A stretch of 63,596 bases of DNA, the filler included, from Stramenopiles sp. TOSAG23-6 (taxonomy: Eukaryota): the NCBI GenBank assembly GCA_900128565.1. It is 14 parts of 14 records of this genome, joined end to end, with 100 filler letters (N's around TTAATTAATTAA, not from the genome) between each part and the next. Parts side by side here need not be neighbours in the genome. Positions count along the whole stretch, not along the records: positions 1 to 6,375 come from LT636708.1; positions 6,476 to 12,850 come from LT636709.1; positions 12,951 to 19,323 come from LT636710.1; positions 19,424 to 25,791 come from LT636711.1; positions 25,892 to 32,255 come from LT636712.1; positions 32,356 to 38,718 come from LT636713.1; positions 38,819 to 45,164 come from LT636714.1; positions 45,265 to 51,610 come from LT636715.1; 6 more parts are not named here. One strand, 5' to 3'. Position 1 is the first letter of the stretch, and each line of letters begins with the position of its first letter. A program made the position numbers and the translations under genes. This document shows positions 6,319 to 63,596 of the stretch, in pieces. The notes below the pieces were generated by a model. That model worked only from the letters and a program-made list of their open reading frames with translations, made no database searches and was not told the origin of the DNA.

Positions 6319-6374
6319 GTATGTTTTATTTTTTTTCAAATTCGATTTTTTTTTCGTACGAAATTTTGTACCTA

Positions 6375-6475
6375 ANNNNNNNNNNNNNNNNNNNNNNNNN
6401 NNNNNNNNNNNNNNNNNNNTTAATTAATTAANNNNNNNNNNNNNNNNNNNNNNNNNNNNNNNNNNNNNNNNNNNN
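6375..6475. other. Artificial contig linker N-TTAATTAATTAA-N (recurs throughout the window)
   Basis: Identical all-frame-stop 12-mer between N runs at about 6420, 12895, 19368, 25836, 32300, 38763, 45209, 51655, 58100, 59209, 60317, 61425 and 62533. Confidence 0.97.
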
Positions 6476-6633
6476 TTTTTTTTATACAATTCAAAAAAAA
6501 AAAAAAAATGTGTATTTCCAAAAATATCAACAATTTTTTTTTTTAAATTCTATTTTTATTGTATCATTTTACCTTTTGTGTTGGATATATTCCGTCTACT
6601 ATACATACAAACCTGTTACAACTACTAAAACGA

Positions 6634-6885
6634 TTATAAAGCAGGTGTTAATTCTGTGTTTTTTTTCATACGGTGTTCTTTTGTACTTATTTTCGCCTCT
6701 GCCTGTCGAACGAGGTCAAGTTTTGCAGCATTGTCTAAATCGAACTGTCGTATTGCCTTATCTGCTTCGATCAGTGCTCTTTCTTTAGCTGCAATTTGTT
6801 GTTCAATGGTTCCAGATCCACCTTCTCCGCACTCACCTCTAGCAAAAATACCTCCCCATACAACTCCTATAATGTAAAATAACAT
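6634..6885 (-). CDS. Small hypothetical protein with hydrophobic N-terminus and short coiled coil
   Basis: 83 aa ORF with protein-like composition. Confidence 0.4.
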   Translation of the reverse strand: MLFYIIGVVWGGIFARGECGEGGSGTIEQQIAAKERALIEADKAIRQFDLDNAAKLDLVRQAEAKISTKEHRMKKNTELTPAL

Positions 6886-7572
6886 TGATTGTGAATTTGT
6901 TTTTCACAAATGGTAAAAAGGTAAGTATAACTTTGCTTCTCTTTTGTCAATTGTATAGACGCACAAGCAACTTATTGTTTAATTAAAAATCATAAAAGAA
7001 ACATAGAAAGACGTATTAAACGCCAAAGAGAAATTACTATAGATGAAAAGAAGTTATCATAAGTAAAGAAAAAAGACGTAAACACTGAAGAAAGTCATAC
7101 ACAATGAATACACAGTCATTGGCTTTCGAAGATGTCAAAAATCAATATAACTTACCCCATTGTGTCTGTAGATCTGTTTCAACGTTGCAACGTTGTTCCC
7201 AGTTCATCATTTCGGCAACAACATTAACTGGTTCCTTTTCACGCGGTGCTCCTTTACCATGTGGCATTGTCTTGAATCAACTCAATTAGAAAGTAGTTGA
7301 AGTTGAAGATTAACTCCAGAAAAGATGTGAGATAGATGAATGCTATATTTATTCATTGATAAGACGAAACCGAAGAAAAAACGGTGACTAACACTACCTG
7401 AAACAGTTTTGTTCCAAGAAAAACATCAACAGGTTTGCGCGGACAAAAAATAACCGTTTTTACGTTTTGTTTTTTTGGAAGATCTCTTTTTTCTTTTGTT
7501 GCAACTTGCAGATCTGTGTTACTACTTAGTATTTACTACTGACAGAAACAAGTCCAAATATTTCTACCTCAA

Positions 7573-8457
7573 ATGATGTTCCACAAAGTTAATTTTGCGT
7601 TCCAAACATTAATCCTGACGATCTGTGTATCTATTTCGATTGGTACAACGAATGTATCACCAGCAGGTACAAGCAATGTATCACAATATTCGTCTAATCC
7701 TAATGAAGCCCACCAAAATTTAGACCCAAACTGTCAACGCCTACCTTTATACACCAACGCCGTTATTGTTTGTATGCTCCCAAATATGTGCAAGGTAACA
7801 TGCGCTCGTGGATATGACGCAGATGGAGATGGTGATGGAAGTGACATATCCCAAAACTCCATGGATATAATATGTGGAGACAATGGTGAATGGAGCGGAA
7901 ACTTAAATTTCAAGTGTCAAGAGACAGTTTGCTCTGTTCCCCCTACAATCTACGACGCAGACGTCGACTGTGAGGTGTATAGTGGTAACGAACGTACATG
8001 TACATTGAAATGTAGAGACGAAAAAGAAAACGTTGGAGGTGATAAAAACGGTGAAACTACAGTCACGTGTAAAGGAAAAGGACCATGGGTGAAGACAACT
8101 GATTTTAAATGCGAAGAACCCGCTGGAATTTCATTCGCTATTTGGACAGGAGTCGCCATTGGTGTAATATTTGTTGCAACGTGTCTGATATTAAACTCAG
8201 GCAAACATATGCGAATGTTTACAACACTTCCAGACTTCGGTAGTGGATCATCGACATTCCATCGCTCAGCCAATTCTCGTCGAGAGAGAGAGACGAAGAA
8301 GAAACACAAGGGAAACCATCAAGACTCATCCGTAGCAACTCTGGAACTTGGAGGTAAAAATACAAGCATTGAAAGGGGCATAAGTAACCCATTGACATCT
8401 GCAGGTTTGGAAGCGGATTATGATCTACGAGGAGCATCGCGTGATGTCAAGTTATAA
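7573..8457 (+). CDS. Type I membrane protein with two Sushi/CCP-like Cys domains
   Basis: Signal peptide; C..C..GY..C...G.W....C repeated twice; TM segment FAIWTGVAIGVIFVATCLIL. Confidence 0.7.
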   Translation: MMFHKVNFAFQTLILTICVSISIGTTNVSPAGTSNVSQYSSNPNEAHQNLDPNCQRLPLYTNAVIVCMLPNMCKVTCARGYDADGDGDGSDISQNSMDIICGDNGEWSGNLNFKCQETVCSVPPTIYDADVDCEVYSGNERTCTLKCRDEKENVGGDKNGETTVTCKGKGPWVKTTDFKCEEPAGISFAIWTGVAIGVIFVATCLILNSGKHMRMFTTLPDFGSGSSTFHRSANSRRERETKKKHKGNHQDSSVATLELGGKNTSIERGISNPLTSAGLEADYDLRGASRDVKL

Positions 8458-8771
8458 TTAGATTTTTTTTGTGTTTCAAACAGTTGTGTGCCATTACAAA
8501 CTTTTTATTTTTATCTATATTTATCTAAATAGATAAAAATATACAAGCAAAATTTCGCACAACACACAAAAGGCAACATTTATATTATATTTATCATACA
8601 ATAAAAAACTAAAAATGTTTAACAGCAACTCTTACCATTATTTTTACCATTTGTTGTTTGTTGTTGTTTCTATTTTTTTTTAAATATTTTCTTTTAATCA
8701 TTTTTTTTTTGCTTTTTATTTAAATTAGGGTTAGTTAGCTAAGGCTACTACAATTTGTACAAATTTCGTAC

Positions 8772-9829
8772 CTAACGCTTTCTAAAACGTTTATCCTTCC
8801 CTTTTAATGATATTGGAGATAAATGGCCCAATGTAATTTGGAAAAATATTTCAAAAAAAAATCTAAAAAATTTGTTAGGTACAAAATTTAGTACGAAAAA
8901 AAAATCGAATTTGAAAAAAAATAAAACATACAGGAATCAGACCGTTTCCGTCCATGTTGATCTATTTCGTGAACTTTTGGTTCATTCTGAGTCAAATGAC
9001 TGGTAATATATTCCAAAGCTTTATCGACCTCATCAGTGAAAAATAAATCTTTCACATCATCTTTTGTAATTGTGCCAAATTCCTCCATGACATCCCAATT
9101 AATGACTTGAGCCCAGTATTCTTCACCAAAAAGAACTACAGGAATATTTTGCATTTTACCTACCTGAACTAAACGGAGAATCTCAAAGAGTTCATCCATT
9201 GTCCCCATGCCACCAGGGGCAACTACAAGAGCTTTGCAAGGTACAGCCATCCAAAATTTTCTAGTAAAAAAATAATGAAATTCGAATGCAAGCTCAGGTG
9301 TGACATATGCATTCAAACCTGGTTCAAATGGCAATTCTATACCCATTCCAACTGATTTAGATCCTTGTACCTCACTTGCACCATGATTCGCAGCTTCCAT
9401 CATACCAGGACCACCTCCAGTGCAAATACTATACGTCGGAAGTTCGGGGTTCTTTTCTCGGCGATCCGTGGACCACTGCGCAAGACCTCGAGCCAATCCG
9501 CGTACTTTTTCATAATAGCCACACATCCAAAAAGTTCGTGTTAGCCTCAAGAGATCTGCTTGCGCTTTAGTGCGTTCCTCATCTGTTAAATCTGAGCGTG
9601 CTAATTTAGCAGTAATCTCATCCGTTGATTTCTTATGTGCTGGAAAACTTTTACCACGAGCAGAAGCAAAAAAGAGAACAGTATTACTTACACCATTCTT
9701 CTCCAAACGTCCTTTTGGTTCTTGGTATTCGCAAAGAACACGAATTGGACGAGCAGAACGACTACAAAGAAAATCTTTACTCTTGTAAGCCTTTTCCCCT
9801 CTTGGAGGAGATTTCGTTGTTGAATTCAT
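8772..9829 (-). CDS. LOG-family nucleotide phosphoribohydrolase (lysine-decarboxylase-like); one intron 8831-8931
   Basis: TGGGPGMMEAAN, FHYFFTRK and PGGMGTMDE motifs; removing the intron gives tail SLGHLSP...KR*. Confidence 0.9.
8831..8931 (-). mobile_element. Introner-like intron, GT...AT
   Basis: GTATGTTTT...GTACCTAAC...CCAAATTAC-AT; removal leaves an open frame to TAG. Confidence 0.75.
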
Positions 9830-11362: not shown

Positions 11363-12843
11363 TCACATATCAATCCCTTTCGATCTTCGTTTTTTTTGCA
11401 TCACAGGAGAATCTGGAGCAACTGGAGCAGCACTTGCTGGAAGAGACACAGGAATGGCAACATCATTAGATATTCTCGCATCTTCCGCAGGTAGAGCAAC
11501 GGCAACAGCGTCCATTCCTTTTCGATTTGAAAGATTTTTGTTAGAGTTATTTATTTTCTTCTTGGATGAATTTTCTTCTGCATGAATTTGTCCAACTATT
11601 AATGCAGTTGCTTTCTGAATATCATTGCCAACAAGTGATAATGCTTCAGCACATGCTTCTGAGGGGAAGCCCATGCCAACCATTTCGTTTAGTTTGCGTT
11701 GATCAGGTTCAACTTTTTCATTGTTTTGGTCCATTTTGTCTATTTCACCTAGATCACACATTGATTGAAATTGTTCGCGAACTCCTTCTTTAGATATAGA
11801 AATGATTTCACCTCTGTTTGCCTCAATAATTTTCAATCGCCGACGATCATCTGCTGATACGGATCCCGCACGGACTCGATATCCTGCTTTATAACTAACA
11901 CCTCCAGCTTTTCCAGCATTCAATAAAATATTCATTCGATCTTGATCAACTTCTTCACCTTCTTCTAAATTTGATGTGCCTTGTTCAGGAAATGCAACAA
12001 AAAATAACTCCATCATTGAAAAACCAGGAGGTACAGGTGGTGGTAAACCATTTAGTTCATATGTCTTCTTTGCCTCACGATAATTTTTCAATGCCTTCAC
12101 ACGAGCGTTAAGAATAATCTGCGCAGCCCACATCATTAAAACTACAATACCATAGGCAATACCCAAAGCAATCAATGAAGTAGACAGAGATTTAACTACA
12201 GCAAGTACCCACTCAGTGTATTCTTGAGTGGATCCACTAAAGCTTACATAGGAAGATAAATTTTGTATTTCTATTTCAGTTTGATTTTGTAATTTTTTAG
12301 AAATGTCTTCTGCAGTAATAAAAATATAAATACCACTTGAGAGAAGTAGTAGTGTAATAACACCACCAATATATTTACACACTCGAAGCACCCGTGATGA
12401 ACGAGCAATCGACCCAAATGTTGAAATGACTGCATTTACCACGAGAAGTGCTAATGGTACAATCGCAATAAATGGCAACCATTGTGGTAATTTTGTTAAT
12501 ATACAAAATATTTCTCTCATATAATTTGCATATTGTAATAAAAGACATGTATTTTGGAAAAATATTTCAATTTTTTTTTTTTAAGGGTTAGGTACAAAAT
12601 TTTTATAAAAACCAAAAAATTTTACCGAAAAAAAAAAAATAAAATAAAACATACATCCAACTGTTACAATAAAAATATTTGCCATGAACGCAAAATTTAA
12701 TTGAAGCGCTTTAAATCCTAAAATTATTCCTGTGCAAATTGATCCAGCGAGAACTGTTCCAATAGTAAAACCAATTGTACTAAAGAAACATGTGGAGAAT
12801 ATAGGTTGCGATTTCATTTCACTCCATGCCTGATCAAACGTCG
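11363..12843 (-). CDS. Multi-pass membrane protein with C-terminal UBA domain (5' truncated); intron 12547-12654
   Basis: Several TM segments; UBA-like LNEMVGMGFP..AC.EAL..VGNDIQKATALI; intron removal joins VTVG-CLLLQYANY-MREIF in frame. Confidence 0.7.
12547..12654 (-). mobile_element. Introner-like intron, GT...AT
   Basis: GTATGTTTT...GTACCTAAC...CCAAAATAC-AT; joins two ORFs in frame. Confidence 0.85.
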
Positions 12844-12950
12844 TGTATTTNNNNNNNNNNNNNNNNNNNNNNNNNNNNNNNNNNNNNNNNNNNNTTAATT
12901 AATTAANNNNNNNNNNNNNNNNNNNNNNNNNNNNNNNNNNNNNNNNNNNN

Positions 12951-14835: not shown

Positions 14836-16481
14836 ATGAGTAAACGTGGGACAAATCAGACCGATGCTGTCACAGGAGATGGCCGAGACATAGAAAATGA
14901 TATCGCAAAATTACGGAAAGCGAATAAAGCACTGCGTCAACAAATGAAAGAATTGACAAACGCACTTCACGAATTAGCACTCAGTGACAAAGCTGCAAAC
15001 TCTAGTGAAATCCGTAAACTGGAACAAGCACACCGCAGTAAAGAAAAACAGATCCGTACATGTCTCAAAAAGATTAAAATTTACAAAATAGGCAACAAAA
15101 AGCTCAAGGCACAAGTGGATGCTTGCGTGGGTGATGACAAGTTGGTAGCAGTGGAAGTCCGGATTGCTGAAAAACAAGAAGAAATCAGAAAATTAAAACA
15201 GGAAAATAAATCTTTCATTTTCAAACAACGAGTGCTAGAAAAACGATTAGATGAATTAGAGTCAATGCAAGGTGATTGGCCTAATAAAATCAAAATGTTG
15301 ACAAAGGATATCGCCGTGTATGTTTTATTTTTTTTCAATTTCGAATTTATTTTTTTTCGTACGAAATTATGTACCTAACAAATTTTTTTTTGAAATATTT
15401 TTCCAAAATACATGTAAGTTTTTTTTCTCATTTTCCTCATTTTCCTCATTTTCACTATAACTTATTTTATTTTTTTGTACCAAATCCTAATTTTTGATAG
15501 TGTTATAAAAAACTGACGAATTCCAAAATATTTTTTTTTTTTTTACAATATATNTATAAAGAGCGTATAAAAAAATGTCGAGCACAGGAATTACGACAGG
15601 AACAAATGGCCGAGCGACAGCTCGTTCAGATGCAGGATTTATCAAAAAAAAACAGTGAACTTCGTGATGAACTTAAAAAACTTGGCTTTGAGGATGATTT
15701 GTATGTTTTTATGATGAACCCTAACCCTAATCAGAGTTATTTTTGTACCTAGTATTTGGTTTTGAGTACCGTTCATATGTATTGTTCATATTCATATTCA
15801 AATTTATTATTTGTTTTTGAGTTTGTACCGTTCATATGTATTGTTCATATTCAAATTTATTATTCAAGTTATTCAAATTTTTATTTAAATGTATTAAAAA
15901 AAATTAGAGCTAATTGCCAACAATTTTTTTTTAAATATTTCTCACAATACTTGGCGAAACGCAAACAGGAAAAAATAAATCGCGAATTGAAATGGAAAAA
16001 GGATAAAAGTCGTTTAGAAAAAGAATTGAGTGAAGTAACAGAGCGACAAAAAAGAGAACGATTGCAGAATACTAGTGAACTAAATGCAAAAATGGCTGAA
16101 ATGAGATCAGTTCAACGTAAAAAAAAGGAATTCGAAAACACACTAAAAGAAAAGGAAAAGGAAGTTCGTATGTACGGTTCCATTATGAATTTCTTTTCTT
16201 TTTCTTACTACGAAAATTCCGTACCTAATGATACTTTCTTTTTTTGAAATATTTCTTCACAGTGCAGGCAAGTTCTTCGATTAAAGCACTTGAAACGTCA
16301 ACTTCGACAACTTGCTCTAGTTCCATCACCAACAGCATCCAGACGCCCACCTCGCAATACTAGTAATTTTAAAAACAATCCTTTTGAAGAAGAGACTCCC
16401 AGCACGGAAGGCGTAAGTCCTACTCAAGACGTCCAACAAGACGAAGAAGAAGAACAAAATGGGGAAATGGATTATTTGTAA
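14836..16481 (+). CDS. Coiled-coil protein, multi-exon (introns 15318-15553, 15701-15952, 16172-16267)
   Basis: Removing these introns gives a continuous coiled-coil frame ...KDIAV|YKERIKK...EDDL|AKRKQE...EVRM|QVLRLKHLKRQLRQ. Confidence 0.75.
15318..15413 (+). mobile_element. Introner-like intron, GT...AT, directly abutting a second intron (15414-15553)
   Basis: Full consensus element followed immediately by GTAAGT. Confidence 0.8.
15701..15952 (+). other. Diverged family intron, GT...TT
   Basis: TT|GTATGTTTT...AAATATTTCTCACAATAC-TT; frame restored; contains an internal duplication and CCCTAA repeats. Confidence 0.75.
16172..16267 (+). mobile_element. Family intron with canonical GT...AG ends
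   Basis: AT|GTACGG...GTACCTAAT...GAAATATTTCTTCACAGTGC-AG; AG occupies the NN position. Confidence 0.8.
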
Positions 16482-17369: not shown

Positions 17370-18510
17370 CTACACATTCGAATAACCGACAGTGCGATTG
17401 TTAATCAACTTTTGAATATATCGAACTTGGAGATACGTAACAAGTATTACAGTGAAGCTTTCAGCATGTATTGTATAACAATATAAATTACAATTTGAAA
17501 CTTGTGAGTGTTTGTGATGCAAAACAAAGTAAATATGAAATTCATGATGAAAGCAAACATTCAAAAAAAAAAATCATTAGGTACAAAATTTCGTACGAAA
17601 AAAAAATAGGTAAAACGTACAATCGTCCACCAAAAAACATCACGATTATTTTGTTCTTGCACATCTGAGTGATTATCGACTCGCATTCCCATATATTTTG
17701 TAGAGGTATATAGAGTATCTATTTGCCAATTTAATCTGCGTAATACTTCCTTTGTAGGTTCTAAATGTTTTTTTTGCAAGTATTGTACAATAATATTTCA
17801 AAAATTCGATTTTGTTTGTTAGGTACAAAAGTTACTATGAAAAAATTTAGACAAAAAATTGAAATGATAAAAAAATTTTAAAAATCTAAAAAAAAATCTT
17901 AGGTACAAAATTTCGTACGAAAAAAAACCATAAATTCGAAATTGAAATTATTAATAAAAACGTACAAGGTATCTTCTAATGAAGTCGTTGGGTCAATATC
18001 AACCGCAAAAGTCACCCGCTTTAAGGCTCGTGAACCAAAACGGTTCTCAAAACAAAACCTATATACGCCAGCTTGTTTTGCAACAATAGAAAATTTATCC
18101 TCGGAAATGTATAGTTTTGATTCATACATAATATTCTCTTTGGTCGTATCTCCTGGGCCATATGCTTTAATCTTTAAATCTCGATTCCCACCAGCAGTGA
18201 CAAAAAATGCTCCATGAATATCCATTGATTCGAGCGGTTCAGCTTGATATAAAACACCATTAAACAACTGAACATCTTCACTAATACATACATCCTCGCC
18301 ATACGGAATATCAAAAGTTAGAATATGAGACGGAGAAAACCTGGGCTCATGAATATTTCCTGATAACTTTGTTAGGCCATTTATGTCAACTGGGACATGC
18401 TCACCTTGAGGAACTTCTACAAGAGCCGTAGAAGCAGCACTTGCCCCATATAAACGACAACTTAAGCTAAATAGGAACAATACTACTGCGATATTCAATT
18501 GATAGAACAT
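17370..18510 (-). CDS. p24/emp24/TMED family cargo receptor; introns 17778-17965 and 17466-17620
   Basis: Signal peptide, GOLD domain (GVYRFCFEN), coiled coil, NNRDVFWWTI|AESF TM segment, YLQVRYI. Confidence 0.9.
17466..17620 (-). mobile_element. Family intron, GT...AT
   Basis: ATT|GTACG...CAATAC-AT|GCTGAA yields the p24-typical WWTIAE. Confidence 0.85.
17778..17965 (-). mobile_element. Composite family intron, GT...TT
   Basis: Two internal TTTTGTACCTAA motifs; TT duplicated at both junctions; joins EDTL|QKKHLEP. Confidence 0.8.
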
Positions 18511-45422: not shown

Positions 45423-48400
45423 ATGAACATGAGTTCTCTAGGTACAAAATTTAGTACGGAAAAAACAAATAATGTCGAACAAAATACAGAAGTCAACCCT
45501 AACCCTAATGTTGATAATAACCCTAACCCTAATGATAATGAACGTCTAGATATCAAAAATGATTGTCCATTTTTTGAAAAAAAACAAAAAAAACAAAAAA
45601 CATATCTTCAAAATCTTCAAAATCAACAATATAAAAATAGTCAAAATACAGCATTTGATATATCACAAAGATCCACAGCTGTACTGTATGTTTTTTTTTT
45701 AAATTTGAAATTGAATTTGTTTTTTTTTTTTTTTTNNNNNNNNNNNNNNNNNNNNNNNNNNNNNNNNNNNNNNNNNNNNNNNNNNNNNNNNNNNNNNNNN
45801 NNNNNNNNNNNNNNNNNNNNNNNNNNNNNNNNNNNNNNNNNNNNNNNNNNNNNNNNNNNNNNNNNNNNNNNNNNTTTTTTTTTAAAATTGAAATTTAATT
45901 TTTTTTTTTTTTTTTTTTGGTAAAAAAATGTTGTACCTAACATTTTTTTTTTTTTTTTTGAAATATTTTTCCAAATTACATGTACGAAATGGATGGTTAC
46001 CCTAACCCTACGAAATTAAATGTACAAGAAAGTAAAACGAATGTGTCACGAGGGTTAGGGTTAGGGTCACGAGGACATTTGAATACTAAACACTCAAAAG
46101 TGGATCGTGTACGTTTTCAATTTTTGTTTTTTTTTCGTACGAAATTTCGTACCTAACGATTTTCATTTTTTTTTCATTTTTTTTTTTCATTTTTTTTTCA
46201 TTTTTTTTTGTTTTTTTTCGTACGAAATGTTGTACCTAACAATTTTTTACTACAATTTTAAAAAATATTTTCTAAACAGTACATCAACGTCATCCTATTT
46301 CAAGCTTCACTGCAGACGCGCGTAATTTATCTTTTATATCACCAAGCCCAACTCCAGTCCTTCTACATCGAAAACGAGTTAACCCTAACCCTAACCCTAA
46401 AGAAGATGTTTCAAATAGACTCTCTAATCCTAAAGAAGATGTTTCAAATAGTCTGTATTCTAGTATTTCTACTAATATTTCTAGTATGTCTTTACAAGAT
46501 AATGAAACACAAAAATCACAAAATATTGACAACATTGGCAAGAAAGATCAAATCCTACTAACTCATCAAGGATCTCAAAATAATACTGTTCATTCACAGT
46601 TAAATTCTACTATAAAAACACTTGAGAGTGCATCAAAAGCAGCATTAATAAGAACAAATACATTGAAAAGAAATCTAGACAAAAACAATATACAAAATTA
46701 TTCAAGAGTAGAGACTATTAGTACTACTACTACTACTAATAATAATATTCATACTACTACTACTACTAATAATAATAATACTACAACAAATACAAATAAA
46801 TATCTCACAAAATAATAGTTCAAATATTGATACTGAAGTCATCTTTAGGTCGCAAACGCAATATGAAATGAGATCTACACAACAATACAACCCTAACCCT
46901 AACCCTAACCCTAAAAAAAACACACTGAACTCAACTGCTATCCCTAACCCTACAGAGATATATCAAGATATTGAGAAAAAATCAAAACGTTCTCGAATTG
47001 TCCAAAAAGTAGGTTTTCAAAATTGATTCTTTTGTTTCGAAAAAATTTCAAAAAAAAGTTGAAATTTTTTTTTTTAACATTTTTTTAACATTTTTTTAAC
47101 ATTTTTTTAACATTTTTTTAACATTTTTTTTACATTTTTTTTATATTTTTTTAACATTTTTTTAACATTTTTTATACAAAAACGTTTAGCTTATATATAT
47201 ATATTTCTTTTACACTATTTTCACAAAATACAGGTACTTCAGAGTTGGAAACATGTATGTTTTTTTTTTTTTTTAATGTATTAATTTTTTTCGTACGAAA
47301 TTTTGTACCTAACAACTTTTTTTTTTTTTTTAATATTTTTCCAAAATACATGGCAGGCTTCGGAACAATATTACAAATCAACAAAAAACGAGCCCTAACC
47401 CTAGTGGTAGTGTCCAACAAACTGCACATTCAATTATAGAAAACTATCAGGAGCAAAAACATTCTCCAGCAAACCCTAACCCTATTTCAAAAAATATCGA
47501 CAATCATTCAGTAAAAACACGAAATAAATCTTTGAACAAAACGTTGAATCCAAACAATACAAAATTTTATATGCCAGCGTATCACAAGGGGTTAGGGTTA
47601 GGGTTAAAACGAACAAAAAACCAAATAACAATTCGACCATTTTCAACACCAACGGAGATGAATCCCAATCCTAATAACCCCAACCCTAATAACCCAAATC
47701 AATCAAAGCATCAAAATCATCCTTGTTCAACTAACCCGAATAACCCTAACCCTAAATTTCAACAACAAAATGAGCAAAACTTTCAACAAATTCTTCATCA
47801 TTATTCTTCTGTACAACATAACAAAAATGATGGACATGTACGTTTTATATGAATTTCTAATTTAATTTTTTATATGAATTTCTAATTTAATTTTTTTTTT
47901 TTTGGTTTTTATAAAAATTTCGTACCTAACAAATTAAATTTTTTTTTTTAAATATTTTTTCACAATACATCCTAATTATAAATCCTTAAGTAACACTTTA
48001 AATATTGTGTCGCCTTTTGTAACTGAAAAAATAACAGAAAAAATAACAGAAAAAATAACAGAAAAAAAAAACAGAAAACCCTAACCCTAAGGGCGACATT
48101 CGAAATGTGTTAATACACCCTAACCCTAGATTAAATACACATTCAACTTCAAGTGAGAAAGAAGAGTTTAATCGTGTTAAATTGGATAACTATTTACGTG
48201 TATCGCGCGGGTCACGTACAACAAGCCGTAACCCTAACCCTAATCGTGTTAGCCATATATCTGCAGCAACTGCTGTGGCTGCAGCAGCATCTGCTGCTCG
48301 AAATAAAGAATTTGAAAAAACATCTACAACACGAAATAAAGAATCCTTCCATAGGATTTCGACGCCGTATTTGTTAAATACTAGGACAAACTCTACAAAT

Positions 48401-51773: not shown

Positions 51774-52964
51774 ATAGTACATGCTATAATATAACTTTGT
51801 CCTGCTTCAAGTCCATTTAATCCTGCATATATGTAATACGAAAAATATTTCAAAAAAAAAATTACAATCTGTTAGGTACACACTTTCGTACGAAAACCAA
51901 AAAAAAAAAATGATGAAAACGTACATGTTGATTGAATTCGTGCAGAAGATACCGAGAAGACACGTATTGTGAAAAAATATTTCAAAAAAAAAAACTTAAA
52001 TTTGTTAGGTACGAAATTTCGTATGAAAACCAAAAAAAAAAAATTAAATTAGAAATTCATATAAAACATACACGCATATACAAAATAGAATGGGCCCAAA
52101 TCAACCAAAATACCATTTGAAGTTGAAAAATATTTAACAGGAAATCCCAAGTAGCTAAATGGTTGAATGATCACATCTATAATTGCAGCTAAGTGATGCC
52201 CGGCAGGGAAGGAAATGTATATTGTGAAAAAATATCTTTCAAAAAAAAACCTTAAATTTGTTAGGTACAAAATTTCGTATGAAACCAAAAAAAAAATAAA
52301 TTTGAAATGAATGATGAAAACGTAGATGAGTCGAACCACCCGTTGTAAAATAATAACAGAGTAGTGGCAAAGAAGCAAAGCCAGGCAAGATGATCTTATA
52401 GCGCCATCTAAGTTCTAATACATCATCTGCAAATCCAAGAAATAACATGAATGTGATAGAAGCCAAAGCTGCGTTATACGCTGCTAGCTCCTCATGAGAA
52501 CGAGCAAAAGCACAGCCCATTAGAGTTACACAAATGAGATATACTGTGCCACAAACAATTCCCAAAGACTCCGCAACTTTAACTTTTTCTTTTGACGTTC
52601 CACGACGACCAAGATCATAACCCCAAAGATTTGCACGAATCAACATCAATTTTATTTGAGGAATAATTTGAACAGTTGATATATACGAAAAAGTACATAA
52701 AAATAACACACAAAATATTTTTGTATTTCGACCACGAAAATCTCCATCTTGATCAAAATATACAGTACCACGTGACCATAACTGTACTAACAATACCATT
52801 GGCAATATTAAAGGTCCAAGGATTGTAATATATTGAAACGTCGAGCACATACTGTTTGACATAGAAAAAGAAACATTTGAAATATCTGCTGCTAACTTTT
52901 CTTTTTCTACCTTTTTATTTGCAGCTGTTTTACGAGATCTCAGTTCCAAATTAGGATTTACCAT
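51774..52964 (-). CDS. DPAGT1: UDP-GlcNAc:dolichyl-phosphate GlcNAc-1-phosphotransferase (3' truncated); introns 52217-52325, 51962-52071, 51831-51924 and one starting at 51773
   Basis: VAESLGIV, FLGFADDVLELRWRYK; spliced product [35 protein letters not shown]. Confidence 0.95.
51831..51924 (-). mobile_element. Family intron, GT...AT
   Basis: Removal restores the conserved [13 protein letters not shown]. Confidence 0.92.
51962..52071 (-). mobile_element. Family intron, GT...GT
   Basis: Removal restores [11 protein letters not shown]. Confidence 0.9.
52217..52325 (-). mobile_element. Family intron, CT...AC on the sense strand
   Basis: CAT|CTACGTTTTCATC...GTACCTAAC...CACAATAT-AC|ATTTCC joins GGSTH|ISFP. 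Confidence 0.75.
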
Positions 52965-53409: not shown

Positions 53410-54477
53410 ATGTCTTTCCCTTGGAATGAAAATTCAGCACCAGCTCCTGTTCGAGGTGCGCGACGTGGTCGAGGAACAAATGAAGCTCCGACTTCACTAT
53501 GGGGTCCACCTCCTGCTCAGTCAGAAAATAAATCGAGGGGTAATCCTTCACAGAGGACTCCACCACCGTGGGGTTTAGACCAAACAAAGTCTCCAACTTT
53601 GACACAAGCACAAGTGCTTCATCAAAGACAACATAACCAACACGCAAAACTTACCAATGAACCTAAAAGTTTTGCACGTGAAGAGTTTGTCGCACAGACT
53701 TCAAATGTACCTCTTCCAAAAAAGTTTGAAATACCTGAAACTTTTCCCGAAGAAGAGCAGCGTTTGGTCGCGGATATGATGAATAATGGATATGAAGAGG
53801 CACAGATTATCGAAGCTATTATGGATCTGCGAGAATCGTTAAAGGCTCAACTGCGAAATTGGCAGGCGAACGAAAACGAACGCGGGAGAAACAAATTACG
53901 CGAGGGATCTCAAGAAATGTTCGCAAACTCTTCGCAGAATCAGGGCCAGATGAACGTCTCCCCTCCAGAATTAACACATCAAAGTGTGAATTCCGGTAAA
54001 CAATCTCGGAGTGATATATCGGCTCCTTGGGATAGAGAGGAAAAGATTCGTCCTGGAATTCGCAGAGTGTCTCGAAACAGGAGAGAAACTGCTCCATTTG
54101 CAGTTGATGAAGAAAACCTCAAGACGAATGGCACACAACACGTCAATCGTGGAAATACCAACGGCATAATGCAAAATCAAAAACGAGATCGTCGGACACT
54201 AAAAATGCAGCGAGATGATAAAGTTAAAGCACGCGAGGAAGGGAGTAAGATGTACGTTTTCATAATTAATTTCAATTTTTCTTTCATACGAAATTTTGTA
54301 CCCAATTATTTTTTTTTTGAAATGTACGTTTTCATTTAAATGTCCAAACTTTAAAACAATATTTTTCTAAAATTCAGATGTGCTGGAGGTGTCGTCTGGC
54401 AGTCAGCTGCACGGGATTCAAATGATGCAGCGCGGGCAACAAGAGAGAGAAATATGGGAACAACCTCGCTTTGGTAA
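53410..54477 (+). CDS. Hypothetical protein; GT-AG family intron 54252-54377
   Basis: Spliced frame ends ...GSKI-CAGGVVW...MGTTSLW*. Confidence 0.6.
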
Positions 54478-56993: not shown

Positions 56994-58055
56994 ATGAGCA
57001 AACTACTTTCAAGCAAAATGATTACGCTTCCTCCGACAAAAAATGATACTAAAAGTTACGCATTACACCTTAACAACGTAAATGTTTTTGATGCTATCAT
57101 AAGAGTTTTATCCAGTGTCGATGTAAGTTCTGATGCCAATCTCTTTGCTGTTCCACTGCTATACCATGCAGTTGCTGCCGATGAAATTGATGGCGTTCGA
57201 ATGCTTTTAAATCGGTGTAAATTTGACATTAACAGGAAGGTTGAAATTAAGAACCTAGTTCAAGGTTACACTGCACTTCACTTGGCAGTTGATCAAGTAC
57301 ATCCCGAAATTGTGTCAGTCTTGCTTTCCCACGGCGCCACAGTCGAAACTAAAACGAATAGTGGTCACCTCCCTCTCAACATTGTAAATATCCCTTATTA
57401 CCCAATGTTGTTTTCTACTTTTCAAATATTATGTCACCTTTTTCTCATTCTTATTACAATTTGTCACTTTAAAAATTTACATGCAGCAATTCGAGGAAAT
57501 GTTTCAATCGTCGAAATGCTTTGTAGATTTGGTGCCAAAGTAAATGCAAAAGGATCACATGGAAATTCCCCTTTGATTGATGCAGCAGAAGCTGGTAACA
57601 TTAAAAGTGTTGAGTATCTAATCAAAAATGGTGCGAATATTCATGCGCAAAACGACTCCGGAAGCACAGCCTTAATCCGTGCAGCGTTCTGTGGTTACTT
57701 CAAAATTGTTTATTTTTTATTACTTAACGGAGCAATTGTAGATCACCAAGATAATATTGGTAATACTGCTCTGATGAAAGCTGTCATCAAAGCTCAAAAC
57801 GTTGAGGTCATTAAAATACTTTATAAATTTGGTGCGTGTAAACATATCACGAATAAATATGGCAACAGTGCTTTGAAAATAGCATTAGAAGACCAAAACC
57901 AGTTCATCGTAAGAGTTTTATCTGAAAGTTGTATGATTTATTTTTTTTTTTACAGAAAAATCGAATTTATTTTTTTCGTACGAAATGTTGTACCTAACAA
58001 TTTTTTTTTTTTTTGAAATATTTTCCTAAAATATAGACGTGATATTGTTGAATCA
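56994..58055 (+). CDS. Ankyrin-repeat protein (3' truncated); introns 57384-57482 and 57931-58036
   Basis: GYTALHLA, GHLPLNI|AAIRGN, GNSPLIDAA, GSTALIRAA, GNTALMKA. Confidence 0.9.
57384..57482 (+). other. In-frame 99-bp intron GT...AT lacking the internal family motif
   Basis: The 33 inserted codons split an ankyrin repeat; removal gives GHLPLNIAAIRGN. Confidence 0.85.
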
Positions 58056-58208
58056 NNNNNNNNNNNNNNNNNNNNNNNNNNNNNNNNNNNNNNNNNNNNT
58101 TAATTAATTAANNNNNNNNNNNNNNNNNNNNNNNNNNNNNNNNNNNNNNNNNNNNTACAAAATTTCGTATGAAAAATAAATTCGAAATTGAAAAAAAATA
58201 AAACATAC

Positions 58209-59264: not shown

Positions 59265-60203
59265 AAATACTTAGAGCCAACTCGCGTTTTGATTCATATA
59301 CTGTATCTTTCGCTAGCCTTTTTTGAAATACCGTTTTGGATGAGGGAAAAATCTTCTGATGAATTGACGCAGTCACTTGAAAAATATAATTACTATACAC
59401 ATGGTCGAGAATATTGGTCTATGACGACTGTGAAATCCTTAGAATTTTGTTTATTACTTTTAGAAGCGTTTGGACTAGTATACTTTGGCTCGATAATTAA
59501 AAGTGAGGTAGTGTCAGAACATGCAACTAACGTGCAGAGCGCTGCTAGTAAAAATATGTCAGGTCAAGAGTCTATGTTCGTTTTCATCATTCATTTTATT
59601 TTTTTTCATAGTAAATGTTGTACCTAACGATTTTTTTTTACGAAAACGAAAAAAAATACATTTTTCACGATACATGAGCGGATTGGTACGGTTATGGCGA
59701 TTTTCACATTGGATATTTTTCGATGCAAGTGTTTTACTTATAGCTTTTATAGATTTATTTCTGTATTCCATTGATTTTTCTTCAGGATTTCTTGGTTCTC
59801 TAATTAGACCCATAATTTGGATTTTATTTATTCATGTATATTTTCATCATGAATTTTTTACCTACATTTTTTTTTTCATAGAAAATTTTGTACCTAACAT
59901 TTTTTTCTCTTTTTTAAAAATAATTTTATTTATTCATCCTGTACGACGAACAATGGGTTTTATAATTAGACTTTTTCGGAGAATTGCTGATGTCCTTTTA
60001 TTACTTTTTGCAGTAGTCGCAATGTTTGCTTGCTTCAGTTATTTCTTATTTAAACCCAAAAATGGAATTATCAATGATACAAACGAAGGCTTTGGTTTCT
60101 CATCATTTTGGGAATCATACAAAACTTTATTCAAGTGTGTAACACTTGTAAATTTTCCTGATTTTATGAATTCTGGATACGCAGAGTTCTCGTGGTTCCC
60201 TTT
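59265..60203 (+). CDS. Ion-transport domain protein (two-pore-channel-like) fragment; introns 59576-59675 and 59836-59937
   Basis: L.LAFFE.P.W; IRP helix; FSSFWESYKTLFKCVTLVNFPDFM pore motif. Confidence 0.75.
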
Positions 60204-60425: not shown

Positions 60426-61520
60426 TTATGAATGAATGTAAAACATTAACATAAAAATAATTTGTAGCAAAATATTGTATTACAATGTATGTTAATTGCA
60501 AAATTGCACTATGCCATTGAACACAAAAGATCAAATGTCAAACAATTAAGAGATAAACTAGTCGACTTAAATTCTAAATTGACTCGATGCGATGTATGTT
60601 TTTTTTTTTTTCAACAAAAAAATTGATTTTTTTTTCGTACGTAATTTTGTACCTAACAATTTTTTTCAAATTTTTTTTGAAATATTTTTCCAAAATACAT
60701 GTACGAATTTTTAATGAATTTGCGAAACGTAGTAACAATATAAAATATGGAAGTCCTCCAAATTTAATTTCAACTCAGATGCGTTTTAAAAAAGGTGTTT
60801 CTTCAAGACGTTCAAAAAGTTCTAGAAGCTCAAAAAGTTCAAAACTTTCAAAAAGTGTAAAATATCGAAATAAATCCAAAAAAATATGATTTTTTTATTC
60901 TGGAACATACCTGCTCGAATTACTCTCTCTGAGACTGAGACTGAGAGAGTCATTCTGGGTAAGAAATCATCGATGAAAAGAAAAACAAGATAAAAAAAAC
61001 AAAAAAAACAAAAAAAACAAAAAACGTTGAATTTTTAAAAAATTGAATATAATAAAATCTTCAAACAAAAATTTCAAGACTTTTTTCTGTTTCAGTAGAA
61101 AATTTATTTTCAATGTTTACAATTTTTTAATTAGGTACAAAATTTCATACCAAACAAAAATTGTTATCCTATACTTTACATTATTTAAAAGTAGTTTATT
61201 GTTCCATTTTATCATCATTATCATCATCATTAATAAGATGTTGGTCCACATCATTTGTTTTGAAGAAATATTTCAAAAAAAAAAAAAATTAAATTTGTTA
61301 GGTACAAAATTTCGTACGAAAAAAAAAAAATATTTCAAAAAAAAAAAAACTTAAATTTGTTAGGTACAAAATTTCGTACGNNNNNNNNNNNNNNNNNNNN
61401 NNNNNNNNNNNNNNNNNNNNNNNNTTAATTAATTAANNNNNNNNNNNNNNNNNNNNNNNNNNNNNNNNNNNNNNNNNNNNTTTTTTTTTTTTTTTTTTTT
61501 CGTGTAAAAAAAAAATTACC

Positions 61521-61551
<31 letters not shown>

Positions 61552-61582
61552 TGAAATGTGAAATGTTTTTAAAAAAACGTAC

Positions 61583-62373
61583 ATATGATTATTAAATAAA
61601 TTTTGTAATTTTTCATTGGCAAAATTAATACATAATTGTTCAAGAGAATTAATTTGCATAATTTCAAAACCAAAAATATCTAAAATACCTATAAAATTTG
61701 ATGAATTATTATTATTACTTGGGGTAGGGTTAGGGTTATCAGTAGTAGGGTTAGGGTTATCAGTAGTAGGGTTAGGGTTTATATTATTTTGAGTGTGGTT
61801 TTGATGATTTGATGAATTTTCATATATTAAATGTTTTTCGTGTAGTATTTTGTTACACACTTCTTCCACAAGCCATGTAAAAATACGTTGATAAATATTC
61901 TTGACTAATGACATCGTATATAATATGATACAATATTTCAAAAAAAAATTTAATTTTTGTTAGGTACAAAATTTCGTACGAAAAAAATTTTCAAAAAAAC
62001 AAATTTCAAAAAAAATATAAAATTACATTTTCTCGTGCTTTTGAAATGGTACATAATTTATCTGTATATTTTGAATTTGGTAAATACAAACGATATATAC
62101 ATAATAAATGAGTCAAATCTGAGTCAAAGCCTAATAAGGAAAATGCTTGTTTGGCATTATTTACATTTTTGATTTTTGTTTTTTTTTCATTTTTTTTTGA
62201 ATTTTTTGAATTTTCTACATTTTTTTTTGAATTTTCTGTAAATTCTAAATGTAATAAATGTAATACACCCACAAGTACTTGCCATATAGTACTTTGTTGC
62301 TTCATAGACACACCAAAGTGTAATAATGCTGCACGTATGCCTGTCGCGTCAGGATCATTTTCAATAAATGGAT
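61583..62373 (-). CDS. Myosin motor domain fragment; intron 61918-62026
   Basis: [14 protein letters not shown] and [11 protein letters not shown]....[16 protein letters not shown]. Confidence 0.92.
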
Positions 62374-62456
62374 TATATATTGTAAAAAAATATTTTTTTT
62401 TTTTTTTTTTTTGAAAAAAATCGTTAGGTACAAAATTCCGTACGAAAAAAAAATTT

Positions 62457-62488
<32 letters not shown>

Positions 62489-62643
62489 NNNNNNNNNNNN
62501 NNNNNNNNNNNNNNNNNNNNNNNNNNNNNNNNTTAATTAATTAANNNNNNNNNNNNNNNNNNNNNNNNNNNNNNNNNNNNNNNNNNNNATTTCGTACCTA
62601 ACAAATTTAAGTTTTTTTTTTGAAATATTTTTCCAAAATACAT

Positions 62644-63596
62644 AATTATGGGAGGAGTAAATCATACAAGAAATACACTAGAAGTAAAGAGATTTTTTAA
62701 ATATATAGAAAATGGAAATTGGTATCAAGCCAAGAATTTACTGGAGGATATAACTGAAAAATATGTACAAGAATATCCAAATGATATAATACGCCCACCT
62801 AGTTGTAATGAATGGAAGAAATGTACCACAACTTTTATTGATATTGAGGGCGAAAAAAGAAAAAAAGGTGAATATTTTCGAGTAAATTCTGATGCAGCTC
62901 AAAACTATTTTGAACGTCATAAGCATAATTTTAAGGATGTACAATGTAAAACAAAATCGTTTTCGACCATTCTAGATGCTAGAGATTTAAAAGCACAAGG
63001 ACTGGTATATCACAATATAGATATAAACAAAATGAAGGAAGGACTGTCCCGTTTTGAAACTACAGAACATTACTATCAACATATACATAATGTAATCTAA
63101 TGAAAAAACAATTTTTATTTTAAAATATTTCCTCACGATGCATGATAATAGGACAATTGAGAGACTTGTACTGAAAAAACGCAGGTATAGGTTTTTTGAT
63201 AGTAAAGAGACAATTATTCGACGTATTGCTGATCCAAAATTCCTAAATTCCATTTGTAATGATCGTCCAATATTTATGCGTTTGAAAAGCAAAATAGATC
63301 CTATATTCATTGCTAACATTTGTCTTGAAATATCCAAATCCAAAGAATCTAATTTGGATGAAGATGATCCAGGAAAGTTTCCATCTCCGCCAGGGGTTGC
63401 TTTAATTAGTCGTAATATGCATACGGAGTTATTGTTTAACGCTTCACATAATGAAGAGGTGTCTCCTAGGTTAATTGAGATGCTGATCCAACTTGGGGCT
63501 GATGTCAATCATGGTAATTCAACAGGCTTTCCCCCATTATTGGTTGCTTCATTGAGAGGTCATGTGGAAGTAGTTGCAAAACTTCTCAAAGCTAAA
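62644..63596 (+). CDS. Ankyrin-repeat-containing protein fragment; 52-bp intron 63092-63143
   Basis: Intron removal joins HIHN|DNRTIERL...; ends LGADVNHG...GFPPLLVASLRGHVEVVAKLL at the window edge. Confidence 0.7.

What the first reader, a model, noticed from the sequence alone, without database searches (positions are those of the whole stretch)
6319..63143. High-copy introner-like intron family that mostly lacks the 3' AG
Seen in sequence: about 40 complete or partial copies of a 95-130 bp element. It starts GTAYGTTTT, contains the palindrome TTTCGTACGAAA joined to a branch-point-like TTTTGTACCTAAC, and ends TTGAAATATTTTTC(C/A)AAATAC-NN. Copies inside genes are always in sense orientation. 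Excision from GTAYG through NN restores the frame and conserved motifs in DPAGT1, PGP, p24, Myb, the kinase, the isomerase, myosin and the ion channel. NN is usually AT, also TT, GT, CT or AC, and only sometimes AG. Established knowledge: U2 introns end in AG and U12 introns in AG/AC. Introners are known from Micromonas and Aureococcus, and abundant non-canonical introns from Amoebophrya, Fritillaria and euglenids. Inference: this is a transposon-driven intron burst in a lineage with a standard-looking 5' site and branch point but AG-independent 3' site choice. I do not recognise this family as described.
Basis: partly seen in the sequence, partly recalled or inferred. Interest (0 to 1): 0.96.

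Follow-up and report, generated by a model that had tools for sequence, protein, structure and literature searches.

The report
Transposon-like introns without 3' AG
A marine stramenopile genome carries many copies of a 100-base mobile element that interrupts genes like an intron, has a normal intron start and branch point, but ends in AT rather than AG, because its last two bases copy the insertion site.

Summary
The window is 14 contigs of an AT-rich eukaryote joined by linkers. One protein matches, at 100% identity, a public model whose label suggests marine stramenopile group MAST-3.

A profile of the element finds 44 hits (37 loci). Of these, 22 lie in sense next to long open frames, 0 in antisense, and 15 are unclear.

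Exact excision from GTAYG through TAC-NN restores conserved motifs without gaps in DPAGT1 (2 of 3 introns) and PGP. It keeps a frame open in 11 of 18 full copies.

New here: NN repeats the two bases before GTAYG in 15 of 18 copies, including CT/CT, GT/GT and TT/TT twice (permutation p 0.0003). So NN is one copy of a 2-bp target-site duplication left by a MITE-like insertion. The boundaries can therefore be read GT..NT or NT..AC; neither ends in AG. Internal AGs in 7 of 18 copies would have to be bypassed.

Splicing was not shown directly. The metatranscriptome contigs were too sparse, no exon-exon joint was seen, and one AG-type copy is retained in contigs from an RNA library.

A public gene model forces GT-AG sites and loses a conserved DPAGT1 motif.

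The papers I searched on this lineage do not describe the family. I rate it a new variant of the known introner / non-canonical intron kind.

The parts
8831..8931 (-). full copy near the 3' end of a LOG-like gene. Bases before GTATG are CT and NN is AT (imperfect duplication).
   Evidence: Pfam
12547..12654 (-). full copy, AT/AT
15318..15413 (+). full copy, GT/AT, directly followed by a second intron-like unit that starts GTAAGT
16172..16267 (+). diverged copy that ends in AG
17778..17965 (-). compound copy (two cores) in the p24 gene, TT/TT
   Evidence: Pfam
26376..26492 (-). full copy in the PGP (HAD phosphatase) gene, AT/AT; the junction lies in a variable region
26842..26947 (-). full copy in the PGP gene, AT/AT. 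Exact excision gives KAS-M-YLRYGK, colinear with homologs.
28778..28910 (-). full copy downstream of the kinase ORF, TT/AT (imperfect duplication); holds one N
32601..32706 (-). full copy in the xylose-isomerase-like gene, AT/AT
35712..35821 (-). full copy just downstream of the bleomycin-hydrolase-like ORF, CT/CT; no open frame beside it
40475..40574 (-). copy in the Myb gene that starts TTATG, AT/AT; the frame is open only with exact excision
41522..41631 (-). copy in the Myb gene, TT/TT
46109..46279 (+). compound copy (two cores) with an AG at its end
47255..47351 (+). full copy, AT/AT
47838..47970 (+). full copy, AT/AT
51831..51924 (-). DPAGT1 intron 3, AT/AT. Exact excision gives ...[16 protein letters not shown], colinear with homologs.
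51962..52071 (-). DPAGT1 intron 2, GT/GT. Exact excision gives ...[16 protein letters not shown], colinear with homologs.
52217..52325 (-). DPAGT1 intron 1, starts CTACG. Only a 109-nt excision (CT..AC, or the equivalent protein with AT..AT) gives the conserved T-x-I-x-F-P.
54252..54377 (+). copy that ends in AG. It is held unspliced in RNA-library contigs of X7 and X8 and in the DNA run X3.
57931..58036 (+). copy in an ankyrin-repeat gene that ends in AG
59576..59675 (+). copy in the ion-channel gene that starts GTTCG, AT/AT
60594..60700 (+). full copy, AT/AT; best profile score
6319..6375 (+). 5' half of a copy, cut by the contig end
19237..19323 (+). 5' part of a copy in the SDR gene, cut by the contig end
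32356..32420 (-). 5' half of a copy, cut by the contig end
45083..45164 (+). 5' part of a copy, cut by the contig end
49965..50021 (+). 5' half of a copy, cut by an N run
58156..58208 (-). 5' half of a copy, cut by the contig end
62589..62645 (+). 3' half of a copy at a contig start, ends TAC-AT
61930..61989 (-). degenerate copy in the myosin gene; boundaries not resolved

Best explanation
This is a family of short non-autonomous DNA elements (MITE-like introners). Each copy is about 95-130 nt and has the termini GTAYGTTTT...AAAATAC.

The element inserts at a dinucleotide NT, mostly AT and often inside (C)AT(G), and duplicates those two bases. It carries a yeast-type 5' splice site (GTAYGT), a branch motif (CCTAAC) and a T-rich tract. 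Only insertions in the sense orientation of a gene survive, because only they can be removed from the transcript.

Removal must take out the element plus one copy of the duplication. The 5' cut is at the G of GTAYG. The 3' cut is two bases past the terminal TAC, about 41-44 nt from the branch point. The intron therefore ends in the duplicated NT (AT, TT, CT or GT) rather than AG.

Shown here:
- the family and its target-site duplication;
- the strand bias;
- exact colinearity with homologs after excision;
- the non-AG boundary that follows from that colinearity.

Inferred, not shown:
- that removal happens in RNA, and by the major spliceosome;
- that the cut is read GT..NT rather than NT..AC;
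- that the conserved 3' block, or a set distance from the branch point, defines the 3' site.
For: - Copy number far above chance: 27 observed against 0.24 expected; 44 profile hits in 37 loci.
- Contigs of the assembly and of an independent metagenome run break at copies. Summed word depth in element bins is 6,300-17,000, against 7-8 for unique sequence in the DNA run X3.
- In 15 of 18 full copies the 2 nt before GTAYG equal NN, including all four copies whose NN is not AT (CT, GT, TT, TT). Permutation p 0.00032. A stricter automatic pick gave 9 of 11, p 0.018.
- Orientation is 22 sense, 0 antisense, 15 unclear.
- Exact excision leaves an open frame across 240 nt in 11 of 18 copies, and in 8 of those only with that exact length.
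- In 8 of 11 copies with a unique frame, the element carries a stop in the host frame. The other 3 have lengths of 106, 100 and 110 nt, which shift the frame.
- DPAGT1 introns 2 and 3 and PGP intron 1 give gap-free alignment through [19 protein letters not shown] and KASMYLRYGKAYFVATN, using 12 and 14 homologs.
- No AG site gives these proteins. The next downstream AG is frame-compatible in only 4 of 18 copies, and 7 of 18 have an internal AG 3-25 nt after the branch A that would have to be skipped.
- For the GT..NT reading: positions 1-6 (GTAYGT) are near-invariant while the two bases before them vary.
Against: - No spliced joint was seen. In three metatranscriptome runs the contigs were 150-240 nt long and did not cover the exons beside the DPAGT1 copies.
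- Contigs of X7 and X8 (one sample) run through copy 54252-54377 unspliced. Element bins are very deep in the RNA libraries too, at 850-7,800. The element is therefore plainly present in RNA-library material.
- G1 of GTAYG is replaced in 2 of 18 copies: TTATG at 40574 and CTACG at 52325. A GT-type 5' site should not tolerate this, whereas the A-T two bases upstream is intact in both.
- Copy 52217-52325 does not follow the rule; it needs a 109-nt excision.
- The terminal inverted repeat is only 4-6 bp, and no autonomous partner was found in the window.
- One copy (near 59867) is flanked by a direct repeat of about 15 nt rather than 2 nt, so the insertion mechanism may not have a fixed stagger.
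Confidence: 0.62

Rival explanations
1. The same elements are spliced as introns, but the cut lies two bases further upstream. The intron would then begin with the upstream copy of the duplication and end at the terminal TAC: AT..AC in most copies, and CT..AC, GT..AC or TT..AC in others. An A at the first base paired with a C at the last is a known workable combination in the spliceosome (recalled knowledge, from no call).
For: Where the duplication is perfect, both readings give the same mRNA (15 of 18). TAC is invariant at the 3' end in all 18 copies. The two copies that lack G1 (TTATG, CTACG) keep the AT before it. For copy 52217-52325, homology places the 3' cut right after TAC.
Against: Read this way, the 5' site is ATGTAT, a poor match to either splice-site class (class consensus recalled, from no call). 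The first intron base would vary (A 14, T 2, C 1, G 1 among the 18). Meanwhile GTAYGT two bases further in is conserved across subfamilies. U12-type splicing does not fit: there is no RTATCCTT and the branch motif is 35-48 nt from the end (U12 consensus and spacing recalled).
Confidence: 0.2
2. The elements are cut out of RNA by a route that does not depend on the usual splice signals. Pairing of the two intron ends would guide the cut, as proposed for euglenid nonconventional introns and Amoebophrya introners.
For: The ends ATGTAT/ATACAT can pair in 86.9% of cells of a 6-bp helix. The minimum-energy fold closes the ends in 3 of 6 copies.
Against: RNAalifold predicts no consensus pair on 14 copies. 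There are 0 compensatory changes, and 49 of 500 shuffles do as well. Fold z-scores run from -0.2 to -2.85. The helix fails for CT and TT duplications. A structure-guided cut would not explain the 22:0 strand bias or the conserved GTAYGT and CTAAC.
Confidence: 0.06
3. The elements are not removed precisely. Either the genes use nearby canonical GT-AG sites, as in the public gene models, or the copies are retained and many host genes are impaired.
For: The public model P0121 joins GT-AG sites around and inside the DPAGT1 copies. RNA-library contigs retain copy 54252-54377.
Against: The canonical model loses the conserved T-x-I-x-F-P and FCTNSIN segments, and puts element-derived residues before the NGLEAGQ motif. 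Retention gives stops or frameshifts in 11 of 11 testable copies, in housekeeping genes. Strand bias is 22:0.
Confidence: 0.06
4. The elements are removed at the DNA level (IES-like), so that expressed genes are element-free.
For: The elements are short, AT-rich and flanked by a 2-bp direct repeat, as ciliate IESs are (recalled).
Against: DNA excision has no reason to be strand-specific, yet the count is 22 sense and 0 antisense. An independent seawater DNA run holds copy 54252-54377 in place within a 1,679-nt contig. None of the 15 joints printed in any run removes exactly one copy; 31 more joints were not shown. No nuclear dimorphism is known in stramenopiles (recalled).
Confidence: 0.03

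Closest known systems
Introner elements of Micromonas pusilla and Aureococcus anophagefferens (MITE-like DNA transposons that create introns)
   Same: Both are short, non-autonomous, high-copy elements with a target-site duplication and inverted termini. In both, the element brings one splice site and the other boundary falls in the duplicated target, so removing the element plus one duplicate restores the gene (review PMC11282704, passages read).
   Different: There the duplication (3 nt in M. pusilla) supplies a canonical AG and the introns are GT/GC-AG. Here the duplication is 2 nt, mostly AT, and the resulting 3' end is not AG in 18 of 22 complete copies.
Amoebophrya introners / non-canonical introns
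   Same: Both are repeated introns whose direct repeats overlap the exon-intron boundaries, with inverted repeats at the ends. In both, boundaries are non-GT-AG and ambiguous because of the direct repeat (PMC7789003, passages read).
   Different: Amoebophrya has 8-20 nt inverted repeats that form hairpins, direct repeats of 3-5 nt, no common splice motif, and an undetected U1 snRNA. Here a strict GTAYGT and CTAAC are kept, the inverted termini are 4-6 nt, and no conserved RNA structure is found.
Non-canonical introns of the tunicate Fritillaria borealis
   Same: Both are MITE-derived introns with TIR and TSD and non-AG 3' ends (AG-AC, AG-AT). In Fritillaria they are removed by a modified major spliceosome (review PMC11282704, passages; the original paper was not read).
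   Different: Fritillaria is an animal, and the 5' end there is not GT. Here the 5' end looks fully canonical and only the 3' end departs.
Euglenid nonconventional introns
   Same: Both have non-canonical junctions, TSD-like repeats at the junctions and a likely MITE origin (PMC11282704).
   Different: The euglenid introns lack a polypyrimidine tract and rely on stable pairing of the ends. Here there is a T-rich tract and a branch motif, and end pairing has no support.
U12-type (AT-AC) introns
   Same: In 14 of 18 copies the boundaries can be read AT..AC.
   Different: There is no RTATCCTT 5' motif. The branch motif lies 35-48 nt from the 3' end, not the roughly 10-20 nt I recall for U12 introns.

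Membership tests
Introner (transposon-derived intron family) | Many similar copies in unrelated genes | tested here: met
   44 profile hits in 37 loci, in DPAGT1, PGP, p24, Myb, kinase, ion channel, myosin, ankyrin, SDR, LOG-like and other genes. Median pairwise identity 0.73 among 15 copies.
Introner (transposon-derived intron family) | Target-site duplication at the boundaries | tested here: met
   15 of 18 copies, including CT/CT, GT/GT and TT/TT twice; permutation p 0.00032.
Introner (transposon-derived intron family) | Terminal inverted repeats | tested here: inconclusive
   Only GTAT..ATAC (4-6 bp) is complementary. That is shorter than typical MITE TIRs.
Introner (transposon-derived intron family) | Removed from the mRNA by splicing | tested here: inconclusive
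   No joint was seen and one copy is retained in RNA-library contigs; coverage was too sparse. Indirect support comes from colinearity and strand bias.
Canonical U2-type GT-AG intron | GT at the 5' end with a consensus 5' site | tested here: met
   GTAYG in 15 of 18 copies; the variants are GTTCG, TTATG and CTACG.
Canonical U2-type GT-AG intron | Branch motif upstream of the 3' end | tested here: met
   CTAAC or a close variant lies 35-48 nt from the boundary in all 18 copies.
Canonical U2-type GT-AG intron | AG at the 3' end | tested here: not met
   The boundary required by homology and frame is AT, TT, CT, GT or AC in 18 of 22 complete copies.
U12-type intron | 5' motif RTATCCTT, with the branch motif close to the 3' end | tested here: not met
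   The 5' end is (AT)GTAYGTTTT and the branch-to-end distance is 35-48 nt. The U12 consensus is recalled. U12-type snRNAs could not be sought because no genome is held.
Hairpin-type non-canonical introns (euglenid, Amoebophrya) | Stable pairing that brings the intron ends together | tested here: not met
   0 consensus pairs on 14 copies. No compensatory change in the 6-bp terminal helix. Fold z-scores from -0.2 to -2.85.
IES-like DNA elimination | An element-free DNA form in expressed nuclei | not testable with these tools
   Only contig-level DNA of one metagenome run was laid. It holds copy 54252-54377 in place. The strand bias argues against this model.

The most novel reading that the evidence does not exclude
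A free-living marine stramenopile lineage has a major spliceosome that routinely carries out the second splicing step at a non-AG site (A/N-U). The site is set by position, two bases past a conserved element terminus about 42 nt from the branch point, and AGs on the way are ignored. A 2-bp-duplicating transposon has used this tolerance to become the main source of the organism's introns. This would be a natural system for AG-independent 3' splice-site choice that keeps a textbook 5' site and branch point.
Probability: 0.45. Interest if true: 0.88.

Novelty: new variant of a known kind. Interest (0 to 1): 0.72.

Why it matters
If transcripts confirm it, this lineage separates 3' splice-site choice from the AG rule while the 5' site and branch point stay fully canonical. 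That is a cleaner natural experiment than Amoebophrya or Fritillaria, where both ends are odd. It would make testable which spliceosome parts (U2AF small subunit, Slu7, Prp18, Prp8) have changed.

It also shows how a transposon's target-site duplication, rather than a splice signal, can fix an intron's last two bases.

There is a practical consequence as well. Public gene models for this organism force GT-AG sites. In DPAGT1 this drops a conserved segment and adds element-derived residues. In eRF3 a 63-residue stretch of a continuous ORF is spliced out. Proteomes of this lineage used in phylogenomics and functional surveys may therefore be wrong wherever a copy sits.

Tried and rejected
- RNA test. 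The look-up of sequencing runs gave 4 RNA and 7 DNA-type runs. I then laid contig 51711-58055 with X7, X8, X9 and X3. RNA contigs were 150-240 nt and did not cover the exons beside the three DPAGT1 copies. The 15 joints printed link equivalent positions of different copies, so they are repeat artefacts; 31 more were not shown. No conclusion on splicing follows from the uncovered parts.
- Protein searches for spliced transcripts. The DPAGT1 exon search found only the public model at 100% identity. The p24 exon search found nothing.
- The JGI metagenome scan with the PGP exon found only relatives at 43-46% identity.
- The exact 25-nt core was sought in prokaryote genome contigs and in viral contigs, with 0 matches in each (one search was unanswered).
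- PDB sequence searches with the isomerase-like exon and the upstream myosin exon gave nothing usable.
- Rfam found only a tRNA, so no snRNA could be examined. No whole genome is held, so a census, a transposase search and a spliceosome inventory were not possible.
- A TA or CAT duplication was considered and rejected. The right-hand C is always present as part of TAC, whereas the left-hand base varies (C, G, T).
- U12-type splicing and a conserved hairpin were considered and rejected.
- Supplements of the papers were closed. The supplementary tables of PMC5778133 and PMC8163842 may hold intron statistics that I could not see.

Full report
WHAT THE WINDOW IS

The 63,596 bases are 14 contigs joined by N44-TTAATTAATTAA-N44 linkers and sorted by falling length: nine of about 6.35 kb and five of about 1 kb. 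Overall GC is 25-39%. No whole genome is held for the window.

The genes are eukaryotic. Pfam finds eRF3, a protein kinase, bleomycin hydrolase, RCC1, Vps36, a mitochondrial carrier, p24, Myb, DPAGT1, a HAD phosphatase (PGP), ankyrin proteins and an ion channel. A PDB sequence search finds a myosin.

The large DPAGT1 exon is 100% identical to a public protein model labelled 'GSMAST32...'. The eRF3 ORF is identical to another such model apart from a 63-residue gap in the model. I read the label as marine stramenopile group 3; that reading is an inference from the name. The next named eRF3 hits at 56-60% identity include several oomycetes, which fits a stramenopile, but plants score alike, so this is not decisive.

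THE OBSERVATION

The palindrome TTTCGTACGAAA (up to 1 mismatch) occurs 27 times against 0.24 expected. With the adjoining GTACCTAAC it occurs 32 times. A profile built from 6 full copies finds 44 hits at E<0.01 (93 at E<=10), which merge into 37 loci.

Copies start GTAYGTTTT, carry the palindrome and the branch-like CCTAAC, and end ...ATATTTTT(C/T)C(A/C)AAATAC-NN. Among 15 single-core copies the median pairwise identity is 0.73, with a range of 0.56-0.95. The 5' nine bases, the core and the last roughly 20 bases are the conserved blocks. Several copies are compound, with two cores. Many contigs end inside a copy.

ORIENTATION AND EFFECT ON GENES

I called a locus sense or antisense only when one strand had at least 60 open codons next to it and at least twice as many as the other strand. 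By that rule 22 loci are sense, 0 antisense and 15 unclear. The two PGP copies among the unclear ones are sense by homology.

For 18 hand-curated full copies (coordinates), I removed the stretch from the G of GTAYG through TAC-NN. This leaves a frame open over 120 nt on each side in 11 copies. In 8 of those the frame is open only with that exact length. In 3 copies two frame classes are open. Six have no open frame, because a stop, another intron or non-coding sequence is near. One copy (52325) is open only if two bases fewer are removed.

Reading through the element in the host frame meets a stop in 8 of the 11 copies with a unique frame. The other three are 106, 100 and 110 nt long and so shift the frame.

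COLINEARITY WITH HOMOLOGS

In DPAGT1, removing 51962-52071 and 51831-51924 yields ...[33 protein letters not shown]. This aligns without a gap to 12 homologs (picked from the 103) through the FCTN(S/A)IN and NGLE(A/V)GQ motifs. The 37-nt exon between the two copies encodes the conserved [11 protein letters not shown].

In PGP, removing 26842-26947 yields ...GKLHKASMYLRYGKAYFVATNTD, gap-free against 14 homologs (picked from the 150). The split codon AT|G gives the M that the closest homologs also have. The second PGP junction lies in a variable stretch and says little.

No AG gives these proteins. The next AG downstream is frame-compatible in only 4 of 18 copies. Seven of 18 copies have an AG 3-25 nt after the branch A that would have to be passed over.

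The public DPAGT1 model uses GT-AG sites instead. One of its acceptors is the AG three bases after the branch A of the third copy. That model loses both T-x-I-x-F-P and FCTNSIN and contains element-derived residues.

THE ODD COPY

The first DPAGT1 copy starts CTACG and ends ...CACAATATACAT. Removing it by the general rule shifts the frame. Removing 109 nt (52217-52325, CT..AC) gives GGSTHISFP, which matches the G-x-T-x-(I/V)-x-(V/F)-P of all 12 homologs. A cut two bases further upstream at both ends (AT..AT) gives the same residues. The 3' end of this copy differs from the consensus at two bases.

WHAT NN IS

In 15 of the 18 curated copies, the two bases before GTAYG are the same as NN: AT/AT eleven times, CT/CT once, GT/GT once and TT/TT twice. 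The three exceptions (CT, GT and TT before, AT after) still share the T. Shuffling NN among the copies reaches 15 matches with p 0.00032. A stricter automatic pick of 11 copies, one of them doubtful, gave 9 matches and p 0.018.

NN is therefore one copy of a 2-bp target-site duplication. The element proper is GTAYG...TAC, with inverted termini GTA(T)/(A)TAC. The base before the AT is C in 7 of the 11 AT/AT copies, and the first exon base after NN is G in 9 of 18. This suggests a loosely palindromic target (C)AT(G).

This is the design known from Micromonas and Aureococcus introners: the element brings one splice site and the other boundary falls in the duplication (PMC11282704, passages). Here, however, the duplication is AT, not AG.

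TWO READINGS OF THE BOUNDARIES

Because of the duplication, the same mRNA results from GT..NT and from NT..AC.

I favour GT..NT for two reasons. GTAYGT is a perfect yeast-type 5' site, and it is conserved across subfamilies while the two bases before it vary. Read the other way, the intron's first base would be A, T, C or G.

Against this, two copies lack G1 (TTATG, CTACG) while keeping the AT before it, and the odd DPAGT1 copy is cut right after TAC.

U12-type splicing does not fit. There is no RTATCCTT, and the branch-to-end distance is 35-48 nt, mostly 41-44. The U12 rules are recalled, not tested.

RNA STRUCTURE

Single copies fold weakly, with z-scores from -0.2 to -2.85. Three of the 6 minimum-energy folds close the ends. 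RNAalifold predicts no consensus pair on 14 copies. The 6-bp terminal helix ATGTAT/ATACAT can form in 86.9% of cells, but there is no compensatory change and 49 of 500 shuffles do as well. It fails with CT and TT duplications. A hairpin-guided cut of the Amoebophrya or euglenid kind has no support.

DIRECT RNA EVIDENCE

One 10-kb stretch found 11 public runs:
- two DNA runs with 95% of the words, possibly the source;
- three seawater metagenome runs of one study (39%, 22% and 16%), plus two further DNA-type runs with small shares (18% and 6%);
- four metatranscriptome runs with 5-14%.

X3 covers all 30 bins at about 7-8x with a few differences. It holds copy 54252-54377 in place within a 1,679-nt contig, and its contigs break at the other copies.

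The RNA-library contigs are 150-240 nt long and cover 13, 18 and 7 of the 30 bins. The exons beside the DPAGT1 copies are not covered. No joint that removes a copy is among the 15 printed; those link different copies, and 31 more were not shown. X7 and X8 each hold a contig that runs through copy 54252-54377 (the AG type) with exon on both sides.

Element bins have summed depths of 850-7,800 in the RNA libraries and 6,300-17,000 in X3. In the polyA run most unique bins are empty, so DNA carry-over alone does not explain the element signal there.

Splicing is therefore neither shown nor excluded. Element-bearing RNA clearly exists.

OTHER SEARCHES

- The 25-nt core has no exact match in prokaryote genome contigs or viral contigs.
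- A JGI metagenome scan with the PGP exon found only relatives at 43-46% identity.
- A p24 exon search found nothing.
- Rfam finds only a tRNA.

LITERATURE

No paper in the held library contains both 'introner' and 'MAST-3'. Two MAST single-cell genome papers do not describe these introns in their main text: PMC5778133 mentions introns only in its methods, and PMC8163842 does not contain the word. The Incisomonas genome paper does not mention introns or splicing (PMC12614181). A 2026 preprint on marine protist single-cell genomes gives only intron proportions. All four were read with the find mode only, and their supplements were closed.

The 2025 introner survey checks families with non-canonical sites by hand and does not mention stramenopiles or MAST in its main text (PMC12130899, find mode). 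I read passages on Amoebophrya (PMC7789003) and a review covering Fritillaria, euglenids and Micromonas (PMC11282704). The original Fritillaria and Micromonas papers are known to me only through that review and recall.

VERDICT

The family is real. It is mobile-element-like, and by strong indirect evidence it is removed precisely from transcripts at a 3' boundary that is not AG.

The new point is that the 'missing AG' is the second copy of a 2-bp target-site duplication. That explains why NN varies and why it matches the exon end. It also leaves two readings of the cut.

The family belongs with the known transposon-derived non-canonical introns. It differs from them in keeping a canonical 5' site and branch point, in its 2-bp duplication, and in its lineage.

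Noticed in passing
window 447, 15719, 17348, 22298, 29252, 29481, 45497-45532, 46055, 46383-46400, 46891-46914, 47592, 47744, 48079, 48232: Short telomere-like runs (TTAGGG, 2-4 units) occur 18 times against 0 expected, in exons, introns and between genes. Read on the other strand they contain CCTAAC, the same hexamer as the element's branch motif. The run at 22298 is flanked by a direct repeat of about 17 nt (ACTTTAATTCCATTCCA), as if inserted at a staggered break.
   Followed up: partly
window 51711-53000 (-) and 3310-5157 (-): Public protein models identical to the window (P0121 DPAGT1, P0002 eRF3) are mis-spliced. The DPAGT1 model forces GT-AG sites and loses conserved segments. The eRF3 model removes 63 residues from a continuous 615-codon ORF.
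   Followed up: yes
window 59840-59990 (+): A diverged copy in the ion-channel gene (start GTATATTTTCATCATG near 59850) is flanked by a direct repeat of about 15 nt (TTTTATTTATTCAT) instead of 2 nt. The insertion mechanism may therefore not always make a 2-bp duplication.
   Followed up: no
window 15414-15560 (+): Directly after copy 15318-15413 comes a second intron-like unit: GTAAGTTTT..., GTACCAAAT, then a T-run and ACAATATAT. The two units sit back to back with no exon between them.
   Followed up: no
window 17400-17620 (-): The second intron of the p24 gene starts GTACGTTTTACC, contains part of another copy's 5' arm (TTTCATCATGAATTTC) and ends ...ACAATACAT. It looks like one copy nested in another.
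   Followed up: partly
window 61589-61800 (-): The myosin ORF carries a stretch of about 40 residues, rich in NPNPTTD repeats and encoded by telomere-like repeats, just before the conserved ILDIFGFE switch-II motif, where myosin-7 has only a few residues.
   Followed up: no
window 13284-13630 (+ coordinates; ORF 12899-14566 on -): Three tandem repeats of 93 nt lie inside a 555-codon ORF that has no Pfam match.
   Followed up: no
window 37704-37776 (-): A tRNA gene (Rfam RF00005, 67 bits) is the only Rfam match in the window.
   Followed up: no
window 38640-38690 (+): A run of about 50 T precedes a partial copy at a contig end.
   Followed up: no
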